NCBI RefSeq assembly: GCF_964213995.1 | Contig: NC_135819.1 | Location: 66,774,001-66,838,000, forward strand | Direction of reading: 5' to 3' | From: Mustelus asterias | Taxonomy: Eukaryota | Length of the DNA stretch: 64,000 nt | Shown: piece after piece, positions 373-62,643 of the stretch | Layout of the letters: the number at the start of each line of letters is the position of its first letter | Numbering within the stretch: position 1 is the first letter of the stretch | Program-made: the position numbers and the translations under genes | The notes under the pieces: model-generated | Told to the model about the DNA's origin: nothing | Seen by the model: the letters and a program-made list of their open reading frames with translations, nothing else | The model's database searches: none

Positions 373-732
373 CTGGACAACGGATTGATCAATGTTTACA
401 GCAGCCTAAAACGCTTTCTGTCACAAAAGGAGACTCGATCGTGTTAAATTGTTTCTACTCGGCACCTAGTCTACAAAGATTCGAAGCTTGGTGGGTTTTC
501 CAAAATGACCACCGATGTCCTCTCAAGACCATCGCAAATTTATCGTCCAATGGACCCCAAGTGATTCATTCTCGATATTCTGCAATACACAACTCCAGTC
601 AGAAAGCATTCACTTTAAGGATAACTGATGTTCAAATCAGTGACACTGGAGTCTATCGCTGTGAGATGTTTAAGACCTCGCCTCCACCAACTGGTAAAGT
701 AATAGGAAAAGGAACGGCGCTGAAAGTAATTG
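373..732 (+). CDS. Gene A exon: VJ-type IgV domain of a V-C1-TM-ITIM receptor
   Basis: Acceptor ttttcaag|373 and donor 732|gtaact, phase 1/1. Encodes GQRIDQCLQQPKTLSVTKGDSIVLNC...AWW...FTLRITDVQISDTGVYRCEMFKTSPPPTGKVIGKGTALKVI, with the B-strand Cys, C-strand Trp, DxGxYxC and a J-like GxGTxLxV motif. Confidence 0.92.
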
Positions 733-1286
733 GTAACTATATAACTTTATAAATTAGATTTCGTACTATATTATTTTGCACATTCCTACAAACTTCAGCT
801 GAAATGAATTCTGTACACGTTTTTGTCAGTCACAGAGATGTGAGTGCTCAGGTTTGATAGTTAGTCCGTGGCGAATTGGCCCGAGCAAGACGTTAGGAGT
901 GCTATAATTGACCTCAGTGCCCTTAGGCTTGGGAGGTTCCTACCCTTGATCTTTATCACGTTTTCCAGATGGACGTGCATATAAATGACATTGGTGGAAG
1001 ACAGAATCCGGGTCTCCATAGCAGAACAGCTTCATGATTTCCTAGGGTCGCACACGAGGAATATTCACAGGTGAGATGTTGGAGGGAACCTTTGGAGCAG
1101 TACCCCAGCAAACAGTCGGTTTACAGAGTGGTGAAAGGGAAAAAAATGGGTGGGAAAAGGGGGCAAGAAAGAAAGGAAAAGAAGTCATTGCGACAGTCAT
1201 ATCAAGGGTATAAACTAGAAAAGCACGACCAATATTTGAGATAACAATGCTGGCACACTGACAACCAGTATCAGCATCAAAGTATA

Positions 1287-1306
1287 ATATATATATATAT
1301 ATATAT
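1287..1306. repeat. (TA)n microsatellite
   Basis: About 10 TA units. Confidence 0.9.
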
Positions 1307-1475
1307 TAAAATTCCCTTCACCCTACCCAAAAACTGGATTGTACCTTTGTCAATGTGCTAACTTTAACGGAGCTAATATAAATGAAGCTGTGAAGAAAAC
1401 ACAGATATCGCAAGCATACGTTTACCATTACTAACCAAAGTGCATAATTTGTCTCCCATGCTTAAAATATTGGAG

Positions 1476-1593
1476 CAGCAGCGCTCCGAAAGCTAGTGGC
1501 TTGTGCTACCAAATAAACCTGTTGGACTTTAACCTGGTGTTGTGAGACTTCTTACTGTGTTTACCCCAGTCCAACGCCGGCATCTCCACATCA
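1476..1593 (+). mobile_element. Penelope-like element 3' terminus (pLTR fragment)
   Basis: Same ~115-bp unit as five other copies in the window; 13-bp TSD taaaatattggag (1463-1475 / 1594-1606). Confidence 0.8.
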
Positions 1594-2802
1594 TAAAATA
1601 TTGGAGTCATTGGAGCAAAGGTTATTTGACTTCTTAAAGATTATTCTGCATTCAAATAGCATTCCTCAATTTGGGCTAATGAAATGTTTGGTTATTTTAA
1701 AAATCAATTGTAATAACACTGGTCTTGTTCCCGACTCTTGCTTTGATAAAGGCAGACATGAAGTACTTATTTACATGCAGTTGCTATTTTTTGATCATCC
1801 ACAAATTGACAATCCTCTGTTGGGTTTCACATCACTTTTAACAATTCTCTGTGTATTAATATAATTGTAAAATACTTCAGTCTCTTTTTTAATGAGTTTT
1901 GAAATTGTTTTCTCAGAATTCCTCTTAGCATCTTGTAAGTATCTACTTACAATAATTAAATTACTTGACATATTAGTTGACCCCAACAACTTTCTAGGCT
2001 CAGAAAATACTGGAAACACTAAGCAGATCAGGAATAGCATCAGTCTAAGAAGTGAGTGACAAGTTAAAGTTTCAAGCCTAACTCTTTATCAAATTTCCTG
2101 CATCTGCATCTGAAGTCAGTTTGGTATGCCCTTGAAAAAAGTTCACTTATTTTGAGAACAGTTAAAAGAGGACACACAGCACTAATTTTCCCAAATGATC
2201 TTGTTTATTAAGATGACTCATGGAATTTCATGATCATCCACGATAATGAAATATGTGCAGAGAACTGTGCACATTGTTCCCTATCAGTATTCTTAGTAGG
2301 CGTATTAATTCTTTGTTGAACAAAATGGTCAGTAAAATAACAAGTGTTAATTATAGATTCAAATACATAGCACTGTTTAATAATGAACCTCCCCCCTCCC
2401 ACATTAAAATACTTTTTTAAAACCAGGAATATCAGTTTACTCAGCAGAGCAATAAATAATGCTACGTTGGGGAAAATTGATGGTTGTGTATTGTGTTACC
2501 TATTTAACTATTGGTTTTTAAACTATGGTATATTCTTGAAAAGAAAAATCATTGTTGGATACAAAATGTATTATGAATAAACAACAGTAACTGCTAGGAA
2601 GTACTATTTTTAACAATAATGGAATTTTTACTGTTACCTAGCTTTTTTAAAAATACCGTTACACTATGTACAATGAATTATTTGCCTCTATATCCACTTT
2701 GAGTCTGATATGAATAAGAAAATCCAATGGTAAAAATTAATTTGACAAATAGACTTTTTTTCAAACAAAATACAGCAGAGACTGGGAATTCTCAGCAAGC
2801 CT

Positions 2803-5549
2803 TAGTCATAGAGGTTTGCAGCATGGAAACAGGCCCTTCGGCCCAACTTGTCCATGCCACCCTTTTTTTTAAACCCCTAAGCTAATCCCAATTGCCCGCA
2901 TTTGACCCATATCCCTCTATACCCATTGTACCCATGTAACTATCTAAATGCTTTTTAAAAGACAAAATTGTACCCGCCTCTACTACTATCTCTGGCAGCT
3001 TGTTCCAGACACTCACCACCCTGTGTGTGGAAAAAGTTGCCCCTCTGGACACTTTTGTATCTCTCCCCTCTCACCTTAAACCTATGCCCTCTAGTTTTAG
3101 ACTCCCCTACCTTTGGGAAAAGATATTGACTATCTACCTTGTCTATGCCCTTCATTATTTTATAGACCTCTATAAGATCACCGCTCAGCCTCCTACGCTC
3201 CAGAGAAAAAAGTCCCAGTCTATCCAGCCTCTCCTTATAACTCAATCCATCAAGTCCCGGTAGCATCCTAGTAAATCTTTTCTGCACTCTTTCTAGTTTA
3301 ATAATATCCTTTCCATAATAGGGTGACCAGAATTGCACACAGTATTCCAAGTGTGACCTTACCAATGTCTTGTGCAACTTCAACAAGACATTCCAACTCC
3401 TGTATTCAATGTTCTGACCAATGAAACCAAGCATGCCGAATGCCTTCACCACTCTGTCCACCTGTGACTCCACTTTCAAGGAGCTATGAACATGTACTCC
3501 TAGATCTCTTTGTTCTGTAACTCTCCCCAATGCCCTACCATTAACTGAGTAAGTCCTGCCCTGGTTCAATCTACCAAAATGCATCACCTCGCATTTGTCT
3601 AAACTGAACTCCATCTGCCATTCATCAGCCCACTGGCCCAATTGATCAACATCCCATTGCAATTGGAGATAACTTTCTTCACTGTCCACTATGCCACCAA
3701 TCTTAGTGTCATCTGCAAACTTACTAACCATGCCTCCTATATTCTCATCCAAATCATTAATATAAATGACAAAACAGTGGACCCAGCACTGATACCTGAG
3801 GCACACCGCTGGTCACAGGCCTCCAGTTTGAAAAACAGCCCTCTACAACCACCCTCTGGCTTCTGTCAAGAAGCCAATTTTGTATCCATTTAGATACCTC
3901 ACCCTGGATTTAACCTTATGCAACAACCTATCATACGGTACCTTGTCAAAAGCCTTGCTAAAGTCCATGTAGACAACATCAACTGCACTGCCTTCATCTA
4001 CCTTCTTGGTTACCCCTTCAAAAAACTCAATCAAATTTGTGAGACGTGATTTTCCACTCACAAAGCCATGCTGACTGTCCCTAATCAGTCCTTGCGTCTC
4101 TAAATGCCTGTAGATCCTGTCTCTCAAAATACCTTCCAACAATTTACCCACCACAGATGTGAGGCTCACTGGCCTGTAGTTCCCAGGCTTTTCCCTGCAG
4201 CCCTTTTTAAACAAAGGCACATTTGCCACTCTCCAATCTTCAGGCACCTCACCCGTGACTATCGATGATTCAAATATCTCGGCAAGGGGACCTGCAATTT
4301 CCTCCCTAGCCTCCCACAATGTCCTGGGATACACTTCATCAGGTCCTGGGGATTTATCTACCTTGATGCACTTTAAGACTTCCAGCACCTCCTTCTCTGT
4401 AATATGTACACTCCTCAAGACATCACTATTTATTTCCCCAAGTTCCCGAACATCTATGCTTTTCTCAACAGTAAATACTGATGAGAAATATTCATTTAGG
4501 ATCTCACCCATCTCTTGTGGATCCGCACATAGATGACCTTGTTGATCCTTAAGAGGCCCTACTCTCTCCCTTGTTACTCTTTTGCCCTTTATGTATTTGT
4601 AGAAGGTCTTTGGGTTCTCCTTTGCCTTATCTGCCAAAACAATTTAGTGTCCCCTTTTTGCCCTCCTGATTTCTCTCTTAACTCTACCCCTACACCCGCT
4701 ATACTCTTCAAGGGATTCACTTGATCCCAGCTGCCTATGCATGTCATGTGCCTCTTTCTTCTTCTTGACCAGGGTCTCAATATCCCGAGTCATCCAGGGT
4801 TCCCTACTTCTGCCAGCCTTGCCCTTCACTATAAGAGGAATGTGTTTACCCTGAACCCTGGTTAACACACTTTTGAAAGTGTGCCACTTACCAGACATCC
4901 CTTTGCCTTCCCACATACTCCCCCAATTAACTTTTGAAAGTTCCTGCCTGATACCATCAAAATTGGCCTTGCCCCAATTTAGAATTTTAACTTTTGGGCC
5001 AGACCTATTATTCTCCATAGCTACCTTAAAACCAATAGAATTATGATCACTGGTCCCAAAGTGATCCCTCACTAACATTTCTGTCACCTGCCCTTCCTTA
5101 TTTCCCAAGAGGAGGTCAAGTTTTGCCCCCTCTCTAGTCGGGCCATCCACATACTGAATGAGAAATTCCTCCTGAATACACAACAAATTTCTCTCCATCC
5201 AACCCTCTAATACTATGGCTGTCCCAGTCAATGTTGGGAAAGTTAAAATCTCCGACTATTACCATCCTATTTTTCTTGGAGCTATCTGTAATCTCCTTAC
5301 ATATTTGCTCCTCAATTTCCCGCCGACTATTTGGAGGCCTATAGTACAACCCTATCAAGTTGCCCTTCTTATTTCTCAGTTCTACCCATATAGACTCAGT
5401 GGCCGAACCCTCGGATATATCCCCTCTCAGTACGGCCGTGATGCTTTCCCTAATCAAAAGTGCAACTCCCCCTCCTCTCTTACTCCTGTTCTATCTTTCC
5501 TATAGCATCTGTACCCTGGAACATTGATCTGCCAGTCCTGTCCCTCCCC
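2803..5549 (-). mobile_element. CR1-clade LINE (HER1-like), 5'-truncated ORF2 with APE endonuclease C-terminus and RT; frameshifted
   Basis: Minus-strand ORFs contain [58 protein letters not shown] and [14 protein letters not shown]. Confidence 0.95.
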
Positions 5550-6699
5550 TGGCAGCATCTAGGGAGAGAGAAATGGAGCTTGTTGACCAATTCCTTAATG
5601 CTCATCCAGCAAATTTTCAAATGAAATAGTAGAAAGGAGAATGGAAAATAGAAAGACAAACACCACTTTCAATTAAAATCTACAAAGTGCAACTGTTCAT
5701 TTATACTCTACAGATTGAGAAAAATTGAAGTGAATTTGCACCTATCAAAATTGGATTGAAATTCCTGCAAATTCTTTCCATTTCATCTGAGTTTAACCAA
5801 TCACTTTTTAAAAATTGGACTCAACCTTCTTCCCTGAGAAAATTTGCAAGTTTTGGGACCATATGTGGGTTCCAACTCTGATGGTGTTCCAGTCCTGCCA
5901 CCTGCACAATTTTCCCAGAGACGGCCAATCAAAGAGGCTGCCTACGGGAACCATGTCCAATTAGAGATGGCAGGCAGGCCAGAGGGCCCAATGAGAGCCA
6001 GGCGCCTCAAGAGGGAGGCATATTCTGAAGATTAAGTAAGTGTGGTCACAGCTGCAAGGCCATCATTGTAGAGGGAAGCCCCCCCACTTCCAGGATGGCC
6101 TGAGGGTGCAGCGATGGCCCTCAGATCGTCTCGGCTCCAGGATGGAGCTATTTATAGGAGATATCGGCACCTCCCTGCTCTTTTGCTGGGAGGCTGCCTC
6201 CAGGTTTTTGCCAGGCTTCCCCCTTGCGGGACTAGGTTGCGAAAAGGTCTCTGGTGTCACCAATGTGACTATAAATGGGCATCTAACTGACACTAATTCT
6301 GTATCTGTCCAAGCTGGGAATGAAAAATCTTGACCCCCGCTTACGGCAAGGTCACTCGGAAAGACTTGAGGAAACTTGGGCACCCTGAGATTCTCCAATT
6401 TGGCTGCTGGTTCTGTCTCTCCAAACCCCCACCTCTATGGGACTGAGTATATTCCGTCCATTGTTTTAAATCAGCTGTTAGGATGTCTGAAGTGGCTGAC
6501 ATGATCCATTTGTTTTTGGCGGTGTTGTTGGTGTATTCGGGATTGGTTACTCACTTGTTTGTGGCCACATGAGAAAGAACAAATTATGAAAAGATTGACA
6601 GACTTAAGAGAAAAAAGAAATGCCAGGTGTGGTTATGGGCAGCACAGAGTCAATGAGACAGAGGCAAGAGAGCCTGCAAACACAGAAGCCCAATGGAGC

Positions 6700-7115
6700 A
6701 TATAGGTTCCTTGGGTAGCACCTTCCAAATCCATGACCACTAATATCTTGAAGGACAAGAGCAGCAAGTACCTGGGAACACCATTACATCATTATCTGGA
6801 AGTTTCCCTCTAAGTCACTCACCAGCCTGTCTTGGGGATGTATTGCCGTTCCTTCACAGTTCACAGTAACCTCATTGCAGTGTGAATGTAAGTCTATTTG
6901 TGACTAATAAATAAACTTTTACTTTACTTCAACTTTATTGGATCAAAACCCTGGAATTCCCTCCCTAACAGCATTGTGGGTGTACCTACGCCTCAAGAAC
7001 TGCAGTGGCTCAAGAAGGCAGCTTGCCACCACCTCTTCTTAAGGGCAACTAGGGCTGGGCAATAAATGCTAGTCCAGTCAACAACACCCACATCTCGTAA
7101 AAGGAATTTTAAAAA
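6700..7115 (+). mobile_element. LINE 3'-end remnant with an embedded SINE-tail fragment (~6860-6925)
   Basis: The tail gggcaataaatgct...acccacatc is shared with the SINE at 21058-21375 and with 56410-56475. Confidence 0.5.
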
Positions 7116-7483
7116 CGTAACTGGTTGAGCGAATGGGAAATTGAGCAAATGACAGCAGATACTAGAGTGGGGAGTCTGATGACTAAGAGGAAAACAAAAT
7201 CAGGAAGGAGGAAATGATTACATTTAAAATATCAAAGTGGGTCACCAGACTGGCAAAAGACCAAATAAATCAGACTAGTGAAAATGAAAATTTGTAAATA
7301 TTTGGTCCTATTTCAAAAGATCATTATTGACTATTAGAACCCTACCCTTAAGTTTAAGTTATATATAGGTAATCTAACTTAGTTTTCGTAGCTTTGAAAT
7401 CTGAATGGTTCAATTGTACATTGGTCTCATATCAGTCTAGTTCCATTATTAATCCAAATTTCTGCCCTCTATTTCATAACCAG

Positions 7484-7795
7484 TTCAACCGTCTCTTTGG
7501 CTATTTGCATCGTCTGATGAAGCAGCATCTTCACCTTCACTTACTGTCACGTGCTCAGCATATAGATTCTATCCAAATGTTATCACAGTGATGTTCCAGA
7601 CAACATGTCTCAGCAATCAACTCACCAATGAAAGCTCACTCAACCTCGATGGGACCTACAACCATACAGCTATCATTAACATCTCTACCAAAACCTGCAC
7701 AAACTCAGCCAAATTCACTTGTGTAATTCAACATCCAGCATCACAATCCAAGATACAGCATACTATCTGCATTGATGCACACAAAACAGGCGAAG
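7484..7795 (+). CDS. Gene A exon: Ig C1-set domain
   Basis: Acceptor ataaccag|7484, donor 7795|gtaaga, phase 1/1. Encodes VQPSLWL...TVTCSAYRFYPNVITV...NLDGTYNHTAII...FTCVIQHPAS, with the C1 hallmarks C-x4-FYP, DGTY and FxCxxxH. Confidence 0.9.
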
Positions 7796-13910: not shown

Positions 13911-14081
13911 ATGCAACATAAGATACCCCATTCTGCAATGACCTATTGATGGAGATGAGAAGAAGGATGGAGCTCTGAAATAAATTGCTGCAGGAAGGCA
14001 GCTACTTGCATAAGGCTAAATGTGTAAAATTTGAGTCTTAGCAGGTTGGCATATGTTGATTACAGAATTCATATTTTACAG

Positions 14082-14171
14082 GTCATAATGGACAGCTCTG
14101 GACATCCATATGTAGCGGAACAGCTTGTATTATTCTTCTTGTGCTCTTCTTTCTCAAAAAATGCACATGCG
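14082..14171 (+). CDS. Gene A exon: transmembrane segment
   Basis: Acceptor attttacag|14082, donor 14171|gtaagt, phase 1/1. Encodes GHNGQLWTSICSGTACIILLVLFFLKKCTC: a hydrophobic helix followed by a KK stop-transfer, with no charged residue in the TM. Confidence 0.85.
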
Positions 14172-20709: not shown

Positions 20710-20783
20710 AAAGAAAAGGAACTCAAGAACAAAAAGGAACTCAAGCTAGTCATGGAAGATTGCACCGTAGGCAAGATAACACG
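20710..20783 (+). CDS. Gene A exon: proximal cytoplasmic tail
   Basis: Acceptor ttttatatag|20710, donor 20783|gtaaac, phase 1 to 0. Encodes ERKGTQEQKGTQASHGRLHRRQDNT and exactly bridges the TM exon (phase 1) and the terminal exon (phase 0). Confidence 0.72.
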
Positions 20784-22088: not shown

Positions 22089-22211
22089 GATGAGAACAAT
22101 GGAAGTAATATCTACTACGCAGAACTGGAATTAGGAAACTTGCAGAAAGTAAGAAAAAAGGAAGAGGAGATTGTCTACAGTACAGTGCTTTTTTCAAAAT
22201 CTGATGAATAG
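22089..22211 (+). CDS. Gene A terminal exon with two ITIMs
   Basis: Acceptor ttttgcag|22089, phase 0. Encodes DENNGSNIYYAELELGNLQKVRKKEEEIVYSTVLFSKSDE*. IYYAEL (22110-22127) and IVYSTV (22170-22187) match the ITIM consensus I/V/L/S-x-Y-x-x-L/V. Confidence 0.85.
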   Translation, partial: DENNGSNIYYAELELGNLQKVRKKEEEIVYSTVLFSKSDE

Positions 22212-33199: not shown

Positions 33200-35660
33200 G
33201 TTTTCATTGAAGATGTGGCACATGGCCAGCAGCTGTGCTTCTTAGACTCTTTCCACATTAACATTCTCACATTCCAATCAGACCAGCATTCTATCTTTTG
33301 CAGCCCTGAGAACAGCACAGATGAGGAAACCACAGACACTGACATTGTTGGATTGTCACAGCATTCACCCACACCCCCCAGTAATGTAGAGACACACACC
33401 TTGGTGGGACTTTGTTCCACAGGGTCACAATCTAGTGGGCACATCATACTGTCTGATCCACAGCAGGTTGGGGCAGGGACATCCCAGGGTGCTAGCATTC
33501 GGAGGATTGGTGGAGGCCAGGAATCTGCTGAGTCTGAGTCAGATGTCTAGATTTGGCCATGCCTCAGTTGCTGGACCTGTAAAGACAAACTCGGAAACAT
33601 CAGGAAGGGATGTCTGCTGCACTCATCAGACTGCAAGGCTGATAGAGGAGTCCGTCCACCTTCAGAATGAGGTGATTGCGCCAACAGGCCAACGCACTGA
33701 GATCAAGACTGATAGGTGGTGGCCACCATGGAGACCTTGGTCCGGGACCTCTATCCTGCACTGCTGCGGAAGCTGCACTTCATAGCTGAAGCACTTGCTG
33801 GCATCCATAATTGTCAATGCCAGAGGTGGGGCTGGGCATCTCAAGCTCACTCCAGCTGCCCCATCTTCTCAAGGAGGCAGCCAAAGGCCCTCAGGCATCC
33901 ATAGAAGGAGGGGGATCAGCAGGTGTACACCCCAGGACCATCCACCCAGGTGACTCTGGGAGAGAACAGCTCATCCAAATCCCCACTTCCTGCGACCCCT
34001 TCAGTTCCAACTCCACAGGCCGAGGATTATGCCGCACAGCAGGACCCGAAAGCAGACCGGGCTCTCCAGAGCTCGGCTCTTCACAGGACACCCGCCAAGG
34101 TCATCATAGACACAGATAGCATTCAGTAGGTTGCCTCCACTGTCATTGTGGTTGTTGGGGATGCACTAAGATGTAGTAGCAGGACTAGAAGAGTCAAGAG
34201 GTTATAGTTGCACAGTGTGAGCACAGATGTAAATCATTTGTACATAATGTTAAATATTGTAAATAAACTCCCAGCAATGTTACCCTGTCAATGGCTCCTT
34301 GTTATGATAATCAGTGTTCGTGTACGTCCAAAGTGAAAGCTTAGTTCCTGCACAGATAAAGGCAAGTGTCTCTGTCCAGGGCTTCCTCCCCATTCTGTGT
34401 GCAATCTTCCCAGCACAATGATGGTGCACCTTCACAGTCCCTGGACACATCAGTCATATATACATCTCGATGGGACTTATCGTTGCTGCCAGAATGTTCT
34501 TGGCTGGTGTCATAGTGTTCTTTCATTTTCACTGTGTGCTCTCAGAATCTTAGAGGTGTGGTTGGGCCCCACCTTCTCTAATGACATGTGGTCCTGAAGA
34601 GATCAGCTTACAAAGAATGTCATAGGATTAAGAGGAGTTAAAGTTTCCCTACTGCATCTCCACGATATGACTCTGCTCATTAAGAGCAAACAAGCTGCTA
34701 TCAGCCAGGCAGGAGTCCGACAGTCACATAATCTCTGTGAGGATTTATGGACTGTCCCCACTGCAAGTCAACAGCATCCTCCTGGAATGTAGGCACTATG
34801 GGCATCTGCTGAGTCTCCATGACAGAAGCTTTATAACAGAGGGTATGTGTGCTGCCAGATGTGAGTGTAATGTTTACAGATGCAATGTGGGGATAGATGG
34901 ATTGTCTTCATTGCATGTCATCATTCATCCTCCATGAATCTAGTGGCTATGAGGGCATGCCAAGTGTACCTGCCTCATCTGAACATCGCAATAGCCTCGT
35001 AGCCATCATCTATGCCTTTGAGGGCCTCCTCACTCTCATCCCCATCTATGTCCTCTTCATCAGAGGGGATATGCAGCTCCTCCATCACCTCCTCGGGCAG
35101 TACCTCCCCATTGTTGTGCAGGATGTAGCAAGTGAAAATGATGCATGACATCCTTTGTGGATTATATTGTAGGGATCCACTGGACCAGTCCAGGCACCAG
35201 AATTTCATTTTCAGCATCCCAATGGTTTGCTCCACCAAAGTGTGAGTTGCAGCATAAGCCTCATTGTACCTTCTCTCTGCTGGACTCTGAGGCTTTCATC
35301 AGCCACATCCTCAATGGGCATTGCTTGTCCCCAAAGAGCCAACCCGTCAGCCTCTGGGGACCCTGGAAAATGTCAGAGATCTGAGACAAATGTAGGAATC
35401 ATGGACACTCCCTGGGAATCATACACTGACCTGGAAGATGCATTTGCTACAGTCACAGACCAGTTGAACATTCAGCAAGTGGAAACCTTTGTCATTGATA
35501 CAATTAACTGCTTGTTGCCATGGAGATCTTGAGTGCCACATGAATGCAGTTAGTTGATAGCATCCTGTATCTGTGGAAAACCAAAGATCTGTGCAAATCC
35601 CAGCACTCTTGCTTCCTGGCTTACCTGATCCCAGTGGAAATGCACAAAGTTGTGGACCTT
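33200..35660. mobile_element. Degenerate Harbinger transposon: Myb-like gene 3' part (+) converging on transposase (-)
   Basis: Minus strand VEQTIGMLKMKFWCLDWSSGSLQY...YILHN and INDKGFHLLNVQLVCD; plus strand LSQHSPTPPSNVETHT. Confidence 0.75.
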
Positions 35661-35975
35661 CACGAAGATGGCTACAGGATAGAGCAGGGAAATGGACTGA
35701 CTGCATTACTTTATAGAGCTGACACAGATTCAAAGCACCGAATGGCCTCTATTTGTGCCGTAATGACTCTATAGGTGGAATTTAATCAGGACGGCAGGGT
35801 TCAATGTCTGCCCCAAAACTGATCATATCCCAAGATAAAACATACCCCAAGACAAGATGCTTCATGAAGAATACATGGCATAACAGTGCACACCCTCACT
35901 TACAGGATACTAGAGACAGAGCCACGTAACGTACGTTCCAGGATTTTCAAAGTAGCTCCTGCCATTGTGTATTCA

Positions 35976-50054: not shown

Positions 50055-50115
50055 ATGGCGAATCCACTGTGCATCACGCTGTTGTCACTTCTCTTCCTCC
50101 AGCAGTTTCTTTTCG
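50055..50115 (+). CDS. Gene B exon: signal peptide of a B7-like protein
   Basis: Acceptor atttttcag|50052, Kozak-like gccATGG, MANPLCITLLSLLFLQQFLF, phase-1 donor 50115|gtaagg. Confidence 0.8.
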
Positions 50116-50120
50116 GTAAG

Positions 50121-51000
50121 GTCCCCCTCCTCTGCAGGGGCATCCACCTGGTTCACCTCCTCCTCCTGGATGTCTCCCCATTGCTGTGCCAGGTTGTAGA
50201 GTGCACACTAGACCATGACGATGTGGGAGACCCTCTGGGGAATGTACTGGAGAGTCCAGGCAGCGGAACCACATCTTCAGAAGCCCGGTGCACTGGTCAA
50301 TGACGGACCGGGTGGCAGCGTGGGCCTCATTATAACAGATCTCTGCCTCAGTGTCAGGCCTCCACACTGGGTGTCATCAACCAGGACCACAGCGGGTAGT
50401 CTTAGTCCCCCACAAGCCATCCCCGCAGCCTGGGGTGGTCCTCAAAGACCCCAGGGATATCTGAGCTGTACAAGATGTAGCAATTGTGCACACTCCCCGG
50501 GTGGTATGACACATGTGCATGATATCACAAACTATCTGGACATTCAGGGAGTGGAGCCCCTTCCTGTTAATAAAGGGCACTCGCTGATTCCATGGGGCCT
50601 GCAGGGCGATGTGCATGCCATCCATAGCCTCCTCTACATGGGGCACCCCAGTGATGGCAGAGAAGCCTGCAGCCCGGACTTCCTGTTGGGCCTGGCACAT
50701 GTCAAAGTGGATGTAGTTGGCTGCCTGGGTGTACAAGGCATCCGTGCCAATGCCTGCGAGGTGCCGCAGAAGTCCCTGCTTGAGCCCTGGAAAGACCCAT
50801 GCGCATAAATGTTTACAGCCACCGTCACCTTCACGGCCATCGGGAGCAGGTGTCTTCCTGCCCCACGAGGTGCCAGGTCCGTAAGGACGCGACATGGGTA
50901 CTTCACAGTCTCCCTGCTGAGACGTAGTCTGCAGTGGCACACGGCGTCCAGCAGCCCATTGAAGGACATGCGGGTCCTATAGAGTTGGAGTCTCTGTCTC
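50121..51000 (-). mobile_element. Harbinger transposase remnant in the intron after the gene B leader exon
   Basis: LPMAVKVTVAVNIYAHGSFQ, FINRKGLHSLNVQIVCD, YNEAHAATRSVIDQCTGLLKMWFRCLD. Confidence 0.85.
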
Positions 51001-52310
51001 CATAATCCTCTGCGTGCCCTCCCCCTTCCCCACCACCTCGAGTCAATGGGCTTCCAGGTCCTGGCCCCTACCAGCGGCCCCTGACCTCATGCTGCAGCCT
51101 CAAGCCTGGGTTGGCCTTGTTCATCGCAGCAGCAAGGACAATTTCCAAAATGGTGGGTGGGGGAGTTGGGGGCTTGTTAAGGAGAGAGAAAGACAGTCCA
51201 TAAGGTGATCCATCATGGGCCCATCAATCTCTCCCAGTAACCCGTGTCCCCATAACTCTGGACTCTGCCAACTGGACACCATCCCCAGTGCCGTGTCCCA
51301 CCTTGATGGGCTGCCGACTGTTGCCACATCTTTGCCATGTCCCCTTATGGTCACCAATGGCCTCCTACACAGCTGTATCCTCACCTCACATGATCTGGCA
51401 TGATGCATTCTGCATCCAGACTGCAGTTACGTGGTCGCTGGTGTGCATCACGAGCCTGCCCCTCCAGATGGCCAGTCCCCCAAGTGCAGACTCCCGAGAC
51501 CACAGGCCATTGCCGGCAGCATGTGGCAGACTGGACTCTGTGCTACAGCGCTCACATAAAGCATAAGGGTGGCTATGAGGAGTTCCCCATTGGGAACCTT
51601 GAAGCATAGACTTGCCACCTCGACACTGGCGCACTAGCTTCCGGGAATGGCTTGCATTGCAGACAGATGGTGAAGAAGCACCCTCGTGACTATCATGTGA
51701 TTGGAAATCATGCAGTCTAAGGAGCGGTGTGAACACTGCTGATCTCCCTTGATTGGAGCAGCAGCTGCCAGACCTGGTACCTGTTACTGTTAGTGGGGCC
51801 TGGGATGGAATGTCCACAATCAGCCACAGAGCCTGTTAGTAGGGTTGGGACTCAACCTCATATGAAATCCCTGAAAGATCATTCAGCGTCCAGGGGTAAT
51901 GCGTGAAACACATGCCCCAAGCCAGAGGCGACACCGCCCCCCCCTCCCCTCCCCTCCCGACCTGTGGCCCTCCGAACATGTCCGAGCTCCCCAACGTCCT
52001 GCACCTATGCAAGCGCTCCACCCATCCTGCGCCATGGCAGCGACTGACCCCCCACCCTGCACCCCAGGGGTTTGTGCTCAGCAGTATTCACCTCCTCGCT
52101 CTCCTTCGCTACTGCTGCTCCTTGACCACACTTTTAAAGACCTGTACTAATTGGTGACAGTGTGACATCATGCTGGAGTGGTGGGAAACCTCCAGGAGTG
52201 TGTGCTGAACTTGCAAATGATATGGAAATCCAGTCAATTTCATGCTCAGCTGGTGCCTCCATGTTTCTCATTAAGATTATGTATTTTTTTATGTCCTATA
52301 TTTTTATTAG

Positions 52311-52658
52311 GTGAGGGATCTTCCTCTCGGGTTAATGGAGTCTCAGGTAAAGACATATTGCTGCCCTGCACCTTTCCTATTGCACTCAATTTCAGACTGA
52401 AGGATCTTGTCATTACCTGGCAGCGAACACTCAGTTCAATCGTGGTTCACAGCTTCTACAGTGTGAAAAATCATCCAGAATATCAAGACTCAGCATTCAG
52501 GGGACGGACTGAGCTGTTTCCCCAAGAATTCCACATAGGGAATGCTACCCTCAGACTGAAAGGAGCAACTATGTCAGATCAGGGCAACTACACCTGCTTC
52601 GTGATTCAACAGGATGGAAATGGCTACTTGGAGAATGTGGTGGAACTGGAATTATATG
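52311..52658 (+). CDS. Gene B exon: B7/butyrophilin-family IgV domain (CD276/VTCN1/HHLA2-like)
   Basis: Acceptor tttttattag|52311, donor 52658|gtgagc, phase 1/1. Encodes GKDILLPCTF...LVITWQR...VVHSFY...YQDSAFRGRTELFPQEFHIGNATLRLKGATMSDQGNYTCFV, the B7-family signature VHSF...Q...FRGRT.LF...GNAxLRL...D.G.YTC. Confidence 0.92.
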
Positions 52659-54469: not shown

Positions 54470-54625
54470 TGCTTATCACATTGCTGCTTGTTGGACCATG
54501 CTGCGGACTACCACATTCCCTACATTAAAAGTGTGCCAACACATCACAAACATCTCATTGGCTGTAAAGTGCTTTGGGATGTCCTATGGCCATGAAAGAT
54601 GCTGCTTAAATAAAAGTCTTTTATT
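54470..54625 (+). mobile_element. Ancient SINE/L2-type 3' tail remnant
   Basis: cattggctgtaaagtgctttgggatgtcc...gaaagatgct...aaataaaagtctttt. Confidence 0.5.
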
Positions 54626-55319: not shown

Positions 55320-55632
55320 GGGTGGCACACTGGTTAGCACTGCTGCCTCACAGTGCCAGGGTCCCAGGTTCATTCCGGCCTCGGGTCACTGTCTGTGTGG
55401 AGTTTGCACATTCTTCCCAGGTTTGCGTGGGTTTCCTCCGGGTGCTACAGTCTCCTCCCACAGTCCAAAGATGTGCAGGTTGGGCTGATTGGCCATGCTA
55501 AATTGACCCGAGTGTTACGGGGGTTAGCACGGTAAATGTCTGGGTTTGGGGGAATGGGGCCTGGGTGAGATTGTGGTCAGTACAGACTTGAGGGGCCGAA
55601 TGGCCTCCTTCTATACTATAGGGATTCTATGT
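55320..55632 (+). mobile_element. HE1-like V-SINE (tail A)
   Basis: Full head, V-domain and tail ending gggattctatg. Confidence 0.9.
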
Positions 55633-55679
55633 CATAATTTTGTACAAATCTATCTGAACTTTCCTAGTCTCCTTTGCTT

Positions 55680-56400
55680 GTTTACAGAATTATTGATCGG
55701 TTACAGCACAGGAGGCCATTCAGTCTGTTTTGTCTGTGTTGGATCTCTGGAAGAGCAACTCGCCTAGTGTCATTCCCCTGACTTCTCCCTGTAGCCCTGC
55801 AAAGTATTCCTCTTCAGATAATAATCCAATTCTTTTTTGAAAGCTACGATACTCGAGGCAGTTCAATCCAGATACTAGCCAGTCATTGCATTAAAAAATG
55901 TTCTCATGTCACTGTTGCTTCTTTTGCCAATTGCTTTAAATCCATTTGGTCTGGTTCTCACTTCTTCCACCAAGGGGAACAGTTTCACCATATCAATGTT
56001 AATGAAGTTCTTCATTCCTGGAAGCATTCTTATGGATCTTTCCTGAATGCTTACGTCCTTCACATATTTCCTGAAAGGTTTCCAGACTGAACGTTGAGGC
56101 TGAACCAGTGTTTTAAACAGTTTAATTAGAACTTTTGTCCTTTTGTACTCAATGCTCCTACTTATAAAACCCAGGATCCTGTAATGGTTTATTAACAATA
56201 TCCCCCTCCCAGTTCACAATATGTCCAGTTCTGTATCATTTACAAATTTTGAAAGTGTGCCCTCTACACCCAAGTCTGGGTCATTAATGTACAACAAGAA
56301 AAACAGGATCCTAACGGTGATCCCTGGGGAACTCCATCACAAACCTTCCTCCAGTTCAAATAACAACCAGTGTTTCCTGTTCGCCAGCAAATTTTATATT
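55680..56400 (-). mobile_element. Degenerate CR1 LINE 3' fragment
   Basis: ILGFISRSIEYK...LFKTLVQP...RMLPG. Confidence 0.7.
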
Positions 56401-57745
56401 TTCAAGAGCGATTAGGGATGGGCAATAAATGTTGTCCTTGCCAAAGAAACCCACTGTGTGTATCAATGAATAAAAAGATCTGAGATAAATGCCACTGGTT
56501 TCAGTAGGCAGGTATTGTCATAAACTCTCAAGGTACAATATTCAAATTTTACCCTAATATCATTACCTAATATTATTACTACCAATAGATCTTAAACTGG
56601 TATCTTGTACTTTTTAATAATCCTGTATCTCAATTCTAACCATTAGCGGTGGGAAAACTTAGAGCTGTCATTTTAGTCAAAAGGTGAAAACAGGAGCTCA
56701 GTGTGCACTGCGTTAATAAGCCACAACTGTTTGAAATCTGGATTTAACACACATTTTTGCTCCTAACTGCTGAACACCATAATTTTGCTTGCATGGAGGT
56801 GCTAACTCAGATTCCTGCAGGTTTGACAGTGAAGTGCTGAGTACATGCAATTTTGGTGGAGTAGCTTTTGAGGGCTGCTCGCACCCACTTCTACAGAATG
56901 TGTGGAGTGTCCTAGTTGTCACTGCACAACATATCGCAAGCGGGTTCAGAATCTGAAGAGGGTGCACCACTTTTCGCGCAGCATTTAAGATGCTTGTGGA
57001 GGAGGTCCAGAGCAGGAGAAATGTTCTGTATCCACAGACAAAAAACACCACCTTTCCCTTCTGTCCCTCTGCTCATGCAGCAGCTGCTCAGGTATAGTCT
57101 TGTGTCCTTCTCCTAATCCTCGTCCAGAACAAAGGGGAATCTCGAACCAGATTATCATGACCAAGCACTCCCTTTTGGCTGCTGACCCCTAGGAGGCCGA
57201 TTAGCAAAGCACATCAGTTTTTGGACAAAGTCCTCAGAGATTATTTGGATTAAATATTGCTAGAGTGTTAGTGAAGAATGAACAGTGTCCAAGAAACTCT
57301 TGCCATGTGTTTCAGAGACTCTCTTCACAACTGCAGTGGCATATACACAAGAAATGATAAGTATCCCTTTAATTAGCACTTCAAATCCACATCAACACCT
57401 TGTTTACCCTAAATAGTTAGTTGCTGTTATGAAAGGCCACCGGGATGCCATGCAGCCTCCTTAATAAGTTCTACAGGCATTTAGAACAGAATAGAATTTG
57501 AAGTAGTGAACTTTCAGGTTCCTTACCCTCGCTTCAATTCCTTTAAAAAGGTGGCATTTTGCTCTAAACACCAGCAGATTTGGTATTTCAGCTCAAAACT
57601 CCACTCTGGTCACATCAGGAGATAGTTAATGCCTGGACACACTGCTAAACATAGTTCATTTCACAGGAAGATTGAGTGATTATTGCATCACAGTTCTTAA
57701 TAGAATCATTTAACCATAATGTCCTGCTTATTCCATATATCCTAG

Positions 57746-57904
57746 ATGAACCACTGATTCCTGGAATTGATGATAAAAATCCAGCTTTGGAAAGAAAGAA
57801 AATCGAATTACCACTGGGGCTTTCAGCTGGAACTCTGATTATTTTAATTGCAGTCGGATTTGGAATTCGCAAAAAGCAAAACAGGAAGCAACAAAATCCT
57901 GAGA
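57746..57904 (+). CDS. Gene B exon: stalk, transmembrane and basic stop-transfer
   Basis: Acceptor atcctag|57746, donor 57904|gtgagt, phase 1/1. Encodes DEPLIPGIDDKNPALERKKIELPLGLSAGTLIILIAVGFGIRKKQNRKQQNPE. Confidence 0.8.
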
Positions 57905-58118
57905 GTGAGTAAAATGTTTAGAAATTTTAGGCATTCGCCGATTGATTTGCATACATATAAATACAAATTTGATACAAATCTATGACAATTGAGTTGCAAA
58001 ATTCAGTGCAAATTTCTTGAATATCTAAAGCAATGGGTTCTTGATATGGAAGTGAATTTACTGCTTTTAATCTCACTTCTATATTGGTTACATTTAAAAC
58101 CAATGATGATGTGTGTCA

Positions 58119-59131
58119 CTTTGATTTGATTTATTATTGTCACATGTATTAGGAAACAGTGAAAAGTAATGTTTCTTGAGCGCTATACAAAGCATACCAT
58201 TCATAGAGAAGCAAAGGATAGAGTGCAGAATGTAGTGTTACAACCATTACTAAGGTGTAGAGAAAGATCAACTTAATGCGAGGTAGGTCCATTCAAAGGT
58301 CTGATGGCAGCAGGGAAGAAGCTGTTTTTGAGTCAGTTGGTACACATCCTGAGATTTTTGTATCTTTTTCCCGACAGAAGAAGATGGAAGAGAGTATGTC
58401 TGGGGTCTGTGAGGTCCTTAATTATGTTGGTTACTTTTCCGAGGCAGTGGGAAGTGTAGACAGAGTCAATGGGAGGGAGGCTGGTTTGAGTGATGGATTG
58501 GGCTACGTTCACGAGCTTTTGTAGTTTCTTGTGGTCTTAGACAGAGCAGGAGCCATACCAAGCTGTGATACAACCAGAAAGAATACGTTCTATGGTGCAT
58601 CTGTAAAAGGTGGTAAGAGTTGTGGCGGACATGCCAAATTTCCTTAGTCTTCTGAGAAAGTAGAGACAAGGCGTTGGTACTCTTTCTTAACTATAGTGTT
58701 GGCATGGGGGGATAAGGACAGGTTGTTGGTGATCTGGGCATCTAAAAACATGAAGCTCTTGACCATTTCTACTTCCTCCCCATTGATGTAGACAGGGGCA
58801 TGTTCTCCTTTACGCTTCCTGAAGTCGATGACTATCTCCTTCATTTTGTTGACATTGAGGGAGAGATTATTGTTGCCGCACCAGTTCACCAGATTCTCTA
58901 TCTCTTTCCTGTACTCCATCTCGTCATTGTTTGAGATCTGACCCACAACAGTGGTGTCATCAGCAAACTTGAAAATCGAGTTGATGGGGAATTTGGCCAC
59001 ACAGTCATAGGTGTCTAGTAAGGGGTTGAGGACACAGCCTTGTAGGGCACCGGTGTTGAGGATCATCGTGGAGGAGGTGTTGCCTTTCCTTACTGATTGC
59101 GGTCTGTGGGTTAGGAAGTTCAGAATCCAGT
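58119..59131 (-). mobile_element. Rex1/Babar-type LINE fragment
   Basis: NTGALQGCVL...KFADDTTVVG; homologous to 44574-45590. Confidence 0.9.
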
Positions 59132-59236
59132 CACTGGATCTACCTGTAGACTGGTAGATTTATCGATATAAATGATTATTGGTGCAAAATGTATGACATA
59201 ATTGAGTTCTATAGATGTATGCTGTAAAGACGTTCT

Positions 59237-59720
59237 GAAAGATGTGCTGGTTAGGTGTATTGGCCCAAGCAGGTGCCGGACTGTGGTGACTAGGGGAATT
59301 TCACAGTAACTCCATTGCAGTGTTAATGTTAAAGCCTTACTTGTGACTAATAAATAAATAATAATAAACTGTATGATGTGACTGTTAACTTACTAAAGAT
59401 AAAAATAGAGAAGTCTTGCTAAAATTATACAAGGCACTAGTTAGACCACTCCTGGAATACTGTGAACAGTTTTGGTCCCCTTATCTAAGGAAAGATACAC
59501 TGGCATTGGAGGCAGTCCAGGGAAGGTTTATTAGGTTGATCCCAGATATGGAGGGATTTTTTGAGAAGAGGTTGAATAGTTAGGCCTGTACTCATTGGAG
59601 TTCAGAAGAATGAGAGGCGACCTTATTGAGAAAAATAGAATTCTCAGGGAGCTTGACAGGGTAGATGCTGAGAGAGTATTTCCTCGTGGGAGATTCTGGG
59701 ACCAAAGGGCATACTCTCAT
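59237..59720 (+). mobile_element. SINE tail-B fragment followed by a CR1 fragment
   Basis: aaagatgtgctggttagg...aataaata, then LYKALVRPLLEYC and [11 protein letters not shown]. Confidence 0.75.
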
Positions 59721-60367
59721 GAGCGAAAGGCCTACCTCTGCACCTACATCTTATGGTGTTATAATTTAAACTGTATATTACGAGCATAGCTTCAAAGTGT
59801 AGTCTTGCTTTGGACCAACATTAAGAAATTGTGAGGTTAGATTTTCAAATTTTCACTTCAAGCATTGGACTCTCCGCATTAGGACTGCAGATTTTTAAAA
59901 TCTCCTCCAAGTGTTAAGTCAAAAGTCAAGGATTGACTCTACTGAGGATTGACAATCCCTTCTCCAGAGAAGTTTCACTGTGGGTTCGAGCTACTTGACA
60001 CCGATACTCAATTTGTGTGTGAATAGAGCCTGAAACTTTACCTCAGAGTCACTGAGCAACAAACTGTTACACAATAAGGATCACAGAACCACAGCTCCAC
60101 AGATTCCTTGTATTCTCAATCATTGACTGTGACTTGTGGAAAATCTTTGTTGTAATTTAATCTAGTCCAATATTCTGTACAGGATTATGTTTTAGAAATG
60201 GTGGCTTGAATTTTGAATCCCCAATGGGGATGAGCACTGAAGCAGATGGGTATGACTACTGGCCAATAAGCCGGTTTCCCAGCACCATTCTACCACCCAG
60301 CAGTTGCCCAGCAGGTCAGCACTCCAGGCAGGCTTAGAGGCCTTCCCTGCCTGGCTAGCTTCAGCAA

Positions 60368-60529
60368 GGTAAGAAGTCTCACAACACCAGGTTAAAGTCC
60401 AACAGGTTTATTTGGTAGCAAAAGCCACTAGCTTTCGGAGCGCTGCTCCTTCATCAGGTAAACCACTTTAACCTGTTGTGAGACTTCTTACTGTGTTTAC
60501 CCCAGTCCAACGCCGGCATCTCCACATCA
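60368..60529 (+). mobile_element. Penelope-like inverted plus direct pLTR fragment
   Basis: 12-bp TSD tagcttcagcaa (60356-60367 / 60530-60541); minus-strand hammerhead core CTGATGA...GAAAGCTA at 60425-60459. Confidence 0.85.
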
Positions 60530-60929
60530 TAGCTTCAGCAACACAGCACAGGTTGCCCTTTAGTGGTTCCATGTCACACCCTACAGCGATGACCTGACTG
60601 CTAAGGGTTCTTTATAATATAAACTATTACAACATGTAAAGAGCACATCCATCTTGGGACCCTTTCCCCTTCCACCTCCTCCCCTCCACCCTCCTCCCCT
60701 CGCTCTATCCCTCACTTACCAGAAAGGTCAGATGGCTGCTTCCTGCATGGTTGAGGACCTCGTATTGTCCCTCCAGCTTCGGCAGCCTACCATGCATCTT
60801 TAATTGGAGGTGAGCCCATCCTCTGGCCTTTAAGTGGCCAATTCAGGGAAAATCATACCTGCTTGACTGTTCCCCAGATATTGCTGGCTGCTGACCTCTA
60901 TTAGTCCCTGACTGCTGGATCCCAAAGCC

Positions 60930-62160
60930 CTATGCTTATGGTGCATTTGGATTTTCAGAAGATTTTCAATAAGGTTCCACACTGGAGGTTAGTAAGCAAA
61001 ATTAGGACACATGGGTTTGAGCTGTTATACTGGCATGGATTGAGAATTGGCTTTTGCACAGAAAGCAGAGAATAAGAATAAACAGATCATTCTCAGGTTG
61101 GCAGGTTGTGACTAATGAGCCACCACAAAGATCAGTGTTTTCTAGCCCCTGCTATTTGCAAACTATATCAATGATTTGGATGCGGAGACCAAATATAATA
61201 TTTCCAAGTTTGCTGATGACTCAAAACTAGATGGGAATGCAAGTTGTGAGGAGGATTGAAGGAGATTTAGACCGGCTAAGTGAATGGGAAAGAACATGGC
61301 AAATGAAATATAATGTGAAAAAAATGTTAAGTTACCCACTTTCATATGGAAGATAGAAATACAGAGTATTTCTTAAATGGTGAGAGATTGGGAAGTGTTG
61401 ATGTCCAAAGGATCTGGGTGTCCTTGTTCATCAGTCACTGTAAGCTAACATGCCGGTACAGCAAGCAATTAGGAAAGTAAATGATATGTTGGCCTTTGGT
61501 GTAAGAGGATTTGAGTACAGAAGTAAATAAGTCTTGCTGTAATTCCCCTTGGTGAGACTGTACCTGATGCATTGTATACAGTTTTAGTCTTGTCACCTTA
61601 GGTAATATATGCTTGCTATAGAGACAGTACAATAAAGGTTCACCAAACTCATCCCTGGAATGGTGGGATTGTCTTGTTAGGGGAGATTGAGGAGATATGT
61701 TCTCTAGAGATTTGAAAAATGAGAGGTGGTCTCATTGAAGCATACATGGCTCGATAGTGGAGTTGCAGAAAGGATGATTCCCCTTGGGTTCTCGAGCCAG
61801 GGGACACGATCTCAAAATCAGAGGTAGGCCATTTAGGACTAAGATAAGGAATTTCACTCCTCAGAGGGTGGTGAATCTTTGGAATTCTATACCCCAGTCA
61901 GCTGTGGCGACTTAGTCATTGAGTATACTCAGGGCAGAGATAAATAGATTTCTAGATGTAAAGGTATTAAGAGATACGGGGATAGTGCAGGAAAAAAGGC
62001 GTTGAAATAGAAGATCAGCCATGATCTAGTTCAGCGGTCTCCAAACTCCGATCCGGATGCAGCCCGCTGCGGGCCAGATGTGGCCTGCGGGCCGTAGTTT
62101 GGAGACCCCTGATCTAGTTGAATGGTGGAGCAAGCTCGAGGAGCCGAATGATTTCCTATG
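60930..62160 (+). mobile_element. Old degenerate CR1 LINE 3' region
   Basis: LDFQKIFNKVP and SKFADDSKL remnants; TQRVVNLWNS-like sequence near 61860. Confidence 0.75.
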
Positions 62161-62229
62161 ATACCAGCAGTAAGTGAGACCATTTGTTAAGAAGCAGAAA
62201 CTAACTCAAGCTTATTTTGTTTTTTTCAG

Positions 62230-62259
62230 AAATGCCTTTACTGGTAGACGCTGTAGAAG
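62230..62259 (+). CDS. Gene B probable small cytoplasmic exon
   Basis: Strong acceptor ttttttttcag|62230, donor 62259|gtaatg, phase 1/1, encodes KMPLLVDAVE. Confidence 0.6.
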
Positions 62260-62566
62260 GTAATGTTCTGTTTTGCGTTCTTCTTAGATTCTAGAATATA
62301 CAATGCTACTGCAACTGACTGCAATAATAAAACTTGTTTTGAATCCAATTTTCCGAAAAGAACCCCACCCAATGCTGAATGGACAGTGGTGACATGTTTG
62401 ATTTTGTAATTTAGCCAGGCAAAAATAGAATTCTCACCATTAAGTAATTTGGAACTTGGACTCCATATATTAAAGGAGATTAAAAACTATAGACATATGT
62501 CAGTTTTAAGCTATGTATATTGAGAACATATTTAAAAAATGAACTTATCAAGTTTACTCCTTTCAG

Positions 62567-62643
62567 AACACATGCACAATCTAATAGATAATTGCAGTTC
62601 AATTTTCTCCCAAAGCTACCTGTCAACATTCATGGGCAAATAG
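62567..62643 (+). CDS. Gene B candidate terminal coding exon
   Basis: Acceptor ctcctttcag|62567; reads in frame EHMHNLIDNCSSIFSQSYLSTFMGK* after a phase-1 junction. Confidence 0.45.

What the first reader, a model, noticed from the sequence alone, without database searches (positions are those of the whole stretch)
373..62643. Putative genetically linked checkpoint pair: PPP-loop ITIM receptor next to a B7-like ligand
Seen: the FG loop of gene A reads YRCEMFKTSPPPTGKVIGKGT, and a B7-type IgV gene follows ~28 kb downstream on the same strand. Established: CD28 and CTLA-4 bind B7 ligands through an FG-loop MYPPPY (CTLA-4: [21 protein letters not shown]), but they have no C1 domain, and mammalian CD28-family receptors are generally not adjacent to their B7 ligands. 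Inference: this could be a co-inherited inhibitory receptor-ligand module combining a CD28-like binding loop, an antigen-receptor-like C1 domain and PD-1/BTLA-like tandem tyrosine motifs.
Basis: inference. Interest (0 to 1): 0.8.

Follow-up and report, generated by a model that had tools for sequence, protein, structure and literature searches.

The report
B7-headed membrane NLR beside checkpoint receptor
The supposed ligand gene in this shark is really an immune sensor of the NLR class with a B7-type antibody-like domain and a predicted membrane anchor at its front, kept from sharks to frogs and alligators, and it lies next to a likely inhibitory receptor that may bind it.

Summary
The receptor is real; the 'ligand' was misread. 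Gene A is a single-copy V(J)-C1-TM receptor with a PPP loop and two ITIMs, kept in 4 of 4 shark species found. Gene B is not a short-tailed B7 ligand: eight canonical exons running past the window encode signal peptide, B7-type IgV, one transmembrane helix, an acidic dileucine motif, NACHT, HD2 and LRRs (equal to public model P0005). Spliced contigs link the TM exon onward, and a skate contig holds the whole frame. The same layout forms one clade (100/100) in sharks, rays, gar, lungfish, amphibians and alligator, so it dates to early jawed vertebrates. Ten literature searches found Ig-TM-NACHT proteins only in sea cucumber (no LRR), none in vertebrates. A second PPP-loop V-C1 gene beside a B7-type gene lies on another contig, so linkage looks non-random; a second, separate Ig-TM-NACHT gene also exists. 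Binding of A to B is untested (about 30%). Most likely B is a surface/endosomal NLR triggered by clustering through its IgV.

The parts
373..732 (+). Gene A, joined V-J exon with YxC-x6-PPP-x5-GxG loop (leader exon lies about 1 kb upstream of the window)
7484..7795 (+). Gene A, C1-set exon
14082..14171 (+). Gene A, uncharged transmembrane exon
20710..20783 (+). Gene A, first cytoplasmic exon
22089..22211 (+). Gene A, last exon with two ITIMs (IYYAEL, IVYSTV) and stop
50055..50115 (+). Gene B, signal-peptide exon
52311..52658 (+). Gene B, B7-type IgV exon
57746..57904 (+). Gene B, stalk + transmembrane helix + basic stop-transfer exon
62230..62259 (+). Gene B, 30-nt micro-exon that completes the acidic dileucine motif
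   Evidence: (GT..AG joint 57904 to 62230)
62260..64000 (+). Gene B, start of intron 4; the gene goes on past the window: NACHT-HD1-WHD-HD2 exon at 65538-67266 and three LRR/C-terminal exons at 74800-74886, 74989-75153, 77293-77623 (window numbering extended along G000:C19)

Best explanation
Gene B encodes an NLR whose front end is a signal peptide, a B7-type IgV domain and a predicted single membrane anchor, so it likely works as a surface or endosomal receptor whose cytoplasmic NACHT-LRR part would be switched on when a partner binds and clusters the IgV; the neighbouring gene A, a V-C1 receptor with two ITIMs, is the best candidate partner. Shown: exon structure, domains, conservation, adjacency (architecture about 0.95). 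Inferred: type I topology with IgV outside; AP-adaptor sorting by the [DE]xxxL[LI] motif (motif function recalled); clustering-driven nucleotide exchange and oligomerisation; output through bound partners, because there is no CARD or PYD. If A binds B (about 0.3), the contact would signal both ways: phosphatase-recruiting inhibition in the A-bearing cell and NLR signalling in the B-bearing cell.
For: Eight GT-AG exons translate exactly to P0005, with V-set, NACHT, NOD2_WH, HD2 and LRR hits. Contigs skip 57905-62229 at GT..AG in X7 and X8 (one sample) and X1 (another organism and study); in X8 one 2736-nt record carries the NACHT exon with 0 differences from record position 724, has the same depth figure (39.5) as the TM exon and the joint, and its 723 upstream and 282 downstream letters fit the model's exon lengths. 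A 3341-nt Logan contig holds the whole V-TM-NACHT-LRR frame of a skate relative (P0014). NACHT cores form one clade, 100/100, 30 of 54 rows; their V domains also group (SH-aLRT 89, 15 of 43 rows), so V and NACHT were inherited together. Among 30 chosen V+NACHT members: hydrophobic helix after V in 29, dileucine in 24 (background 42 of 569 windows), intact Walker A in 27. Linkage: S. torazame accessions; second PPP V-C1 gene 33 kb upstream of a B7-type V-C-V-TM gene on C17, while at most 0.13% of the genome lies within 60 kb of one of 39 B7-type V hits. Gene A's V groups with EIP-loop CD28H-type V exons, apart from Ig/TCR V (SH-aLRT 88).
Against: No localisation or tissue data. Walker A is degenerate in two gars and alligator, so ATP-driven switching is not needed in every lineage. 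No death-fold effector exists, so the output is a guess. Gene A orthologues were found only in sharks (4 proteins among 135 candidates, word-limited search), whereas gene B spans jawed vertebrates; linkage outside Scyliorhinus is unchecked, and in S. canicula only the contig length agrees while the accession numbers are about 490 apart. The V-to-TM and micro-exon-to-NACHT joints of this species were not seen directly. Flanking markers gave no sign that C19 and C17 are paralogous (no tetraspanin or legumain hit on C17). Ig genes cluster for reasons of descent alone. One model (Stegostoma isoform X2) lacks the TM exon and skate contigs hold a short V-TM form without NACHT. The NBD part of the predicted structure is low-confidence (pLDDT under 50).
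Confidence: 0.55

Rival explanations
1. Gene B is a microbe-binding pattern receptor like sea cucumber AjNLRC4: the IgV binds microbial surfaces and the inner part drives uptake; gene A is only a neighbour.
For: AjNLRC4 binds microbes through its Ig domain and drives actin-dependent uptake (PMC8699970, passages); the Atlas's two best clusters for P0005 are NACHT+V-set, commonest in echinoderms; the dileucine motif fits endocytosis; amphibians have several diverged copies.
Against: The V is B7-type, single-copy in this genome and as conserved as the NACHT across lineages (33-43% to gar, lungfish, amphibians and alligator versus 24-39% for the NBD), which fits a host partner better than varied microbes.
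Confidence: 0.2
2. Gene B is a membrane-tethered damper or scaffold on endosomes, in the manner recalled for NLRC3 and NLRX1; the IgV serves adhesion or location and does not trigger the NACHT.
For: No CARD or PYD; Walker A lost in gars and alligator; short LRR followed by three predicted helices.
Against: Walker A intact in 27 of 30; the profile matched NLRX1 only over HD2-LRR (positions 686-876), with NOD2 and NLRP3 ranking higher; no Pfam NLRX1_C hit among the 25 families listed.
Confidence: 0.17
3. One reading: gene B mainly makes a short-tailed B7-like ligand for gene A, and the NLR form is secondary.
For: A 214-residue V-TM-dileucine form stands in skate Logan contigs (P0118 cluster, 5 members); a phase-compatible 76-nt stop exon lies at 62568-62643.
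Against: NACHT-bearing models in 16 named elasmobranchs and many bony vertebrates; no C domain.
Confidence: 0.06
4. The V-TM and the NLR are two genes joined by annotation software.
For: Such read-through happens at this locus: the S. torazame model runs on into legumain-prodomain exons.
Against: Spliced contigs and a contig-derived full frame; the same junction in sharks, rays, gar, lungfish, amphibians and alligator; congruent V and NACHT trees.
Confidence: 0.02

Closest known systems
Sea cucumber AjNLRC4 / AjNLR-new (PMC8699970, PMC13133943; passages read)
   Same: Extracellular Ig, transmembrane segment, intracellular NACHT, no CARD (AjNLRC4).
   Different: AjNLRC4 has two Ig domains, two TM segments and no LRR; gene B has one B7-type IgV, one TM, full HD2-LRR on a NOD2/NLRP-type core, and is a vertebrate gene. 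Orthology not tested; independent origin is likelier because B7-type V domains are a jawed-vertebrate type (inference).
Anthozoan transmembrane NLRs (PMC5094078; passages read)
   Same: NACHT-LRR with N-terminal membrane anchor.
   Different: 3-5 N-terminal TM segments, no Ig ectodomain mentioned in the passages; the paper calls other metazoan NLRs cytosolic.
Vertebrate NOD2 / NLRP3 / NLRC3-type NLRs
   Same: NACHT with Walker A/B, WHD, HD2, ribonuclease-inhibitor-type LRRs, one large NACHT exon.
   Different: Death-fold effector replaced by signal peptide-IgV-TM; nearest other NACHTs in the genome are at most 30% identical.
B7 family (CD276/B7-H3, VTCN1/B7-H4, HHLA2/B7-H7)
   Same: IgV sequence type; closest shark paralogues 36-45%.
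   Different: No IgC domain; 790-residue NLR tail instead of a short tail.
CD28 family members CD28X and CD28HL3 (PMC11599192; parts 1-5 of 6 and supplement 4 read) for gene A
   Same: CD28X-type loop spacing YxCx6PPPx4/5GxG (met in this species, S. canicula X1 and Pristiophorus; S. torazame has SxG); CD28HL3-type tandem I/VxYxxL ... VYSxV tail.
   Different: Extra C1 domain, which the family definition excludes; no EYEDM motif; tyrosines 20 residues apart (motifs 27-61 apart in CD28HL3); on C19, not near the PLA2 and AMPK-beta hits on C13.
SIRP family for gene A
   Same: Joined VJ exon, C1, ITIM tail; NCBI names one orthologue SIRP-alpha-like and the Atlas ranks a SIRP-alpha cluster first.
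   Different: One C1 rather than two (two recalled), two tyrosine motifs, PPP loop; no SIRP chain among the 60 best PDB hits shown for either domain.

Membership tests
NLR (NACHT-LRR) family, gene B | NACHT domain with Walker A and B | tested here: met
   PF05729 83 bits; GDAGVGKS and LIILDGLDE; Walker A in 27 of 30 members
NLR (NACHT-LRR) family, gene B | WHD, HD2 and C-terminal LRRs | tested here: met
   (HD2 30 of 30, LRR_6 28 of 30 at E 0.1)
NLR (NACHT-LRR) family, gene B | N-terminal death-fold or BIR effector (canonical vertebrate subfamilies) | tested here: not met
   V-set and TM instead; no CARD/PYD in P0005 or among the 25 families listed for 30 members
NLR (NACHT-LRR) family, gene B | Cytosolic location | tested here: inconclusive
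   Signal peptide and TM by hydropathy and exon layout predict a membrane protein; no localisation possible
B7 family, gene B | B7-type IgV | tested here: met
B7 family, gene B | V plus C ectodomain | tested here: not met
   No Ig-like frame between V and TM exons; none in the aligned orthologues
B7 family, gene B | Binds a CD28-family receptor | not testable with these tools
   Needs a binding assay
Echinoderm Ig-NACHT receptors (AjNLRC4 type), gene B | Ig outside, TM, NACHT inside | tested here: met
   Predicted topology against PMC8699970
Echinoderm Ig-NACHT receptors (AjNLRC4 type), gene B | No LRR, two TM segments | tested here: not met
   LRRs present, one TM peak
Echinoderm Ig-NACHT receptors (AjNLRC4 type), gene B | Common descent of the NACHT | not tested
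   No named echinoderm sequence was in the tree
CD28 family (PMC11599192), gene A | Single IgV-TM-cytoplasmic layout | tested here: not met
   C1 exon in this gene and in all orthologues
CD28 family (PMC11599192), gene A | CDR3 prolines with G-strand GxG | tested here: met
   PPP in 4 of 4 species; GxG in 3 of 4
CD28 family (PMC11599192), gene A | [M/L/I][Y/F]PPPY hexamer of CTLA4 | tested here: not met
CD28 family (PMC11599192), gene A | Synteny with a described member | tested here: inconclusive
   Only CD28HL3 markers were probed (C13); neighbours seen here (ACOT-like, legumain-prodomain, tetraspanin) match no marker list read
SIRP family, gene A | V-C1-C1 ectodomain (recalled) | tested here: not met
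   One C1 in the gene and orthologues
SIRP family, gene A | Joined VJ exon and ITIM tail | tested here: met
   (no RSS heptamer at the exon end)

The most novel reading that the evidence does not exclude
Early jawed vertebrates wired a B7-type checkpoint ligand directly to an NLR: gene B is a two-way ligand-receptor that is read by the linked PPP-loop ITIM receptor and answers through its own NACHT-LRR, a cell-contact-triggered NLR pathway kept in sharks, gar, lungfish, amphibians and crocodilians; sharks and rays built a second Ig-TM-NLR separately.
Probability: 0.28. Interest if true: 0.95.

Novelty: new variant of a known kind. Interest (0 to 1): 0.82.

Why it matters
Vertebrate NLRs are taught as cytosolic sensors with death-fold effectors, and B7 proteins as short-tailed ligands. 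An old, widely kept vertebrate gene that joins the two shows a membrane-receptor route into NLR signalling, sits unrecognised in databases as 'NLRC3-like', and can be tested in frogs or newts. It also offers a natural design in which an outside binding event may drive NACHT oligomerisation. The linked V-C1 ITIM receptor and the second linked pair on C17 bear on how CD28/B7 pairs and VJ-C1 antigen-receptor precursors arose.

Tried and rejected
Complex prediction of the two V domains was not available: no verdict. A model of gene A's V domain and the VIA structure comparison could not be run. The run search for gene A's V exon listed no holder on record as RNA; gene A's splicing rests on splice signals and orthologue models only. 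The V-to-TM joint in this species stays unobserved. Gene A as shark CD28HL3: rejected for now (C1 present; marker hits on C13). Gene A as rearranging Ig/TCR segment: rejected (single copy, joined VJ, no heptamer). Kinship of the C-terminal helices with NLRX1's C-terminal bundle (recalled): not shown by sequence. C19-C17 paralogy through flanking genes: not found. A better-matching LRR tail elsewhere in the genome: none. Ohta et al. 2019 on VJC1 genes (PMC6761025) is not held, so gene A may already be named there. Three look-ups of earlier scan findings returned nothing.
Full report
Setting. The window is G000:C19:66774001-66838000 of a 3.68-Gb genome. Gene B equals the NCBI protein P0005, named Mustelus asterias by its source. 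Introns are filled with LINE-like and other repeats.

Gene A. Five exons in the window (373-732, 7484-7795, 14082-14171, 20710-20783, 22089-22211) have GT-AG sites in matching phase and give one open frame; a leader exon lies about 1 kb upstream. Domains are V-set and C1-set. The V's best PDB hits are antibody and TCR V domains, the C1's are shark UrIg2 and novel-antigen-receptor constant domains. It is single-copy: the best-scoring other V in the genome is 34% identical, the best other C1 32%. Four proteins from three other sharks were found among 135 candidates; all keep PPP and both ITIMs. Against the motif tables of the 2024 CD28-family survey (PMC11599192; text parts 1-5 of 6 and supplement 4 read, all 9 supplements searched) the loop has CD28X spacing and the tail resembles CD28HL3, but the family is defined as V-TM-tail, and no gene A peptide was found in the supplements. 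In a 15-row tree its V groups with EIP-loop CD28H-type exons apart from Ig/TCR V (SH-aLRT 88, quick method). The Atlas ranks SIRP and V-C1 clusters first. Reading: a non-rearranging VJ-C1 inhibitory receptor near the CD28H branch, member of neither CD28 nor SIRP by layout. Recruitment of SHP phosphatases is inferred from the ITIM consensus.

Gene B. A search with its V exon returned 7 proteins among 159 candidates, all 810-1086 residues with V-set and NACHT. Eight exons (50055-50115, 52311-52658, 57746-57904, 62230-62259, then 65538-67266, 74800-74886, 74989-75153, 77293-77623 in extended numbering) translate with no mismatch to P0005: leader, B7-type IgV, stalk, one hydrophobic helix followed by basic residues, EKMPLL, NACHT, WHD, HD2, LRRs and three predicted terminal helices (mean pLDDT 60, V and LRR confident, NBD not). 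Structure and profile searches rank NOD2 first, then NLRPs. The NACHT exon is single-copy; the 76 other matches scored 27-30% identity (stricter first look).

Is the fusion real? Four runs kept as contigs were laid on 57600-67500 (library types not on record, X7 and X8 one sample). The joint 57904 to 62230 (GT..AG) stands in X7, X8 and X1. X8 record 32 (2736 nt) holds the NACHT exon without a difference from record position 724 and shares its depth figure with the TM exon and the joint, so I read them as one contig; 723 upstream letters fit 596 coding letters plus a short UTR, and 282 downstream letters equal the next two exons plus 30. X4 has a 3640-nt record with TM and NACHT exons at one depth figure. 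Independently, P0014, from a 3341-nt Logan contig clustering with skate proteins, carries the whole layout in one frame.

Range. The NACHT-LRR search gave 16 elasmobranch-type proteins at 57-100% and then a drop to 23-26% (24 hits among 8000 scored). A profile search of 1.84 billion representatives gave, among the best 150, 17 proteins with V and NACHT, 16 with V first. Source names were looked up for 30 proteins: 8 sharks and 8 batoids in all, two gars, lungfish, coelacanth (NACHT part only), caecilian, newt (two genes), seven frog genera and two alligators. In the careful tree the representatives of these form one clade, 100/100, roughly following species relations (54 rows, midpoint root, no human rows); P0105 and P0147 fall outside; P0006, P0043, P0089, P0113, P0141 and several elasmobranchs were not rows. 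No chimaera, teleost, bird or mammal member was seen among the named proteins, which does not show absence. In 30 members chosen for having V and NACHT, 29 have the helix, 24 the dileucine motif (7% background), 27 an intact Walker A.

Linkage. Gene A's stop is 27.8 kb from gene B's start. In S. torazame the two sets of accessions are five apart on a contig of the same length; in S. canicula only the contig length agrees. On C17 a V(EIPPP)-C1-TM gene lies 33 kb upstream of a B7-type V-C-V-TM gene on the same strand, with a second V-C1 gene 145 kb further up; V-C-V is the HHLA2 layout (recalled), and PMC11599192 states that CD28H binds B7H7/HHLA2. Two other CD28H-type V exons (C13, C26) had no B7 V in the 60-80 kb read. 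Two such pairs are unlikely by chance, but shared descent from an Ig cluster would give the same picture without binding today.

Mechanism. Most likely the IgV is engaged outside the cell or in an endosome, clusters the protein and lets the NACHT domains oligomerise on the membrane; without CARD or PYD the signal must pass through bound partners, perhaps at the juxtamembrane helix or the terminal helices. Gene A is the leading partner candidate because PPP-loop receptors bind B7-type V domains and the genes are linked; I put binding at about 0.3. Rivals are a microbe receptor, a tethered damper, or a mainly short ligand form.

Literature. Ten full-text searches (seven aimed at gene B, three at gene A and the pair) found Ig-TM-NACHT only in sea cucumber (PMC8699970, PMC13133943; passages) and multi-TM NLRs in anthozoans (PMC5094078; passages); other listed papers were seen as listings only. 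The whale shark NLR survey (PMC8455134; passages and 12 of 24 supplements searched), a zebrafish NLR paper (PMC4852459; passages) and a 2025 fish NLR review (PMC12436146; passages) do not mention an Ig-TM NLR in what I saw. PMC10751288 and PMC12227049 (passages) describe other VJ-C1 genes. Subscription papers, including the 2019 VJC1 paper and an older B7-family paper (recalled), could not be read, so prior mention is possible.

Verdict. New variant of a known kind; interest 0.82.

Noticed in passing
G000:C4:33921537-33940516 (-), loci L096, L102-L103: A second, separate Ig-TM-NLR: exons for V, C1, TM, a C1-like segment after the TM, then NACHT, 43-76% identical to ray protein P0105 (Narcine); its NACHT lies outside the gene B clade. 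No transcript check.
   Followed up: partly
G000:C17:70767161-70969400, loci L003, L010, L046, L069-L080, L112-L115: Two EIPPP-loop V-C1 genes with near-identical C1 exons, one 33 kb upstream of a B7-type V-C-V-TM gene: a candidate linked CD28H-like/HHLA2-like pair.
   Followed up: partly
G000:C13:61427955-61428287, locus L002: Best paralogue of gene A's V (34%), with a TM-like frame 2 kb on and no clear C1; lies between PLA2 (58.6 Mb) and AMPK-beta (63.6 Mb) hits, so a loose candidate for the shark CD28HL3 that PMC11599192 did not find.
   Followed up: partly
extended window 74800-77623 (L032): The three tail exons of gene B are only 42-47% identical to other sharks and rays (NBD and HD2 65-82%) and branch outside all 13 other elasmobranch tails; no better copy in the genome. 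Fast change or an old alternative cassette; unexplained.
   Followed up: partly
extended window 85691-89841 (L033): Legumain-prodomain exons just behind gene B, with no Peptidase_C13 hit on C19; the S. torazame model splices them onto the NLR.
   Followed up: partly
P0118 cluster (Logan contigs): Skate-like contigs encode a 214-residue V-TM-dileucine form without NACHT, a possible ligand-only or decoy isoform.
   Followed up: partly
P0032, P0181, P0214: Walker A is altered in two gars and in alligator, suggesting ATPase-dead versions.
   Followed up: no
window 14160-14171: Gene A has a Cys-x-Cys right after the TM (second Cys lost in Pristiophorus); palmitoylation or a CD4/CD8-like Lck clasp (recalled) are guesses.
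   Followed up: no
window 50077-51426 (-) and 34978-35748 (-): Broken Harbinger/DDE-transposase-like frames (family recalled, not scanned), one inside gene B's first intron.
   Followed up: no
extended window about -68.4 kb (-) and 136158-146564 (+): Nearest other genes seen: an acyl-CoA thioesterase-like exon upstream (name recalled) and tetraspanin exons downstream.
   Followed up: partly
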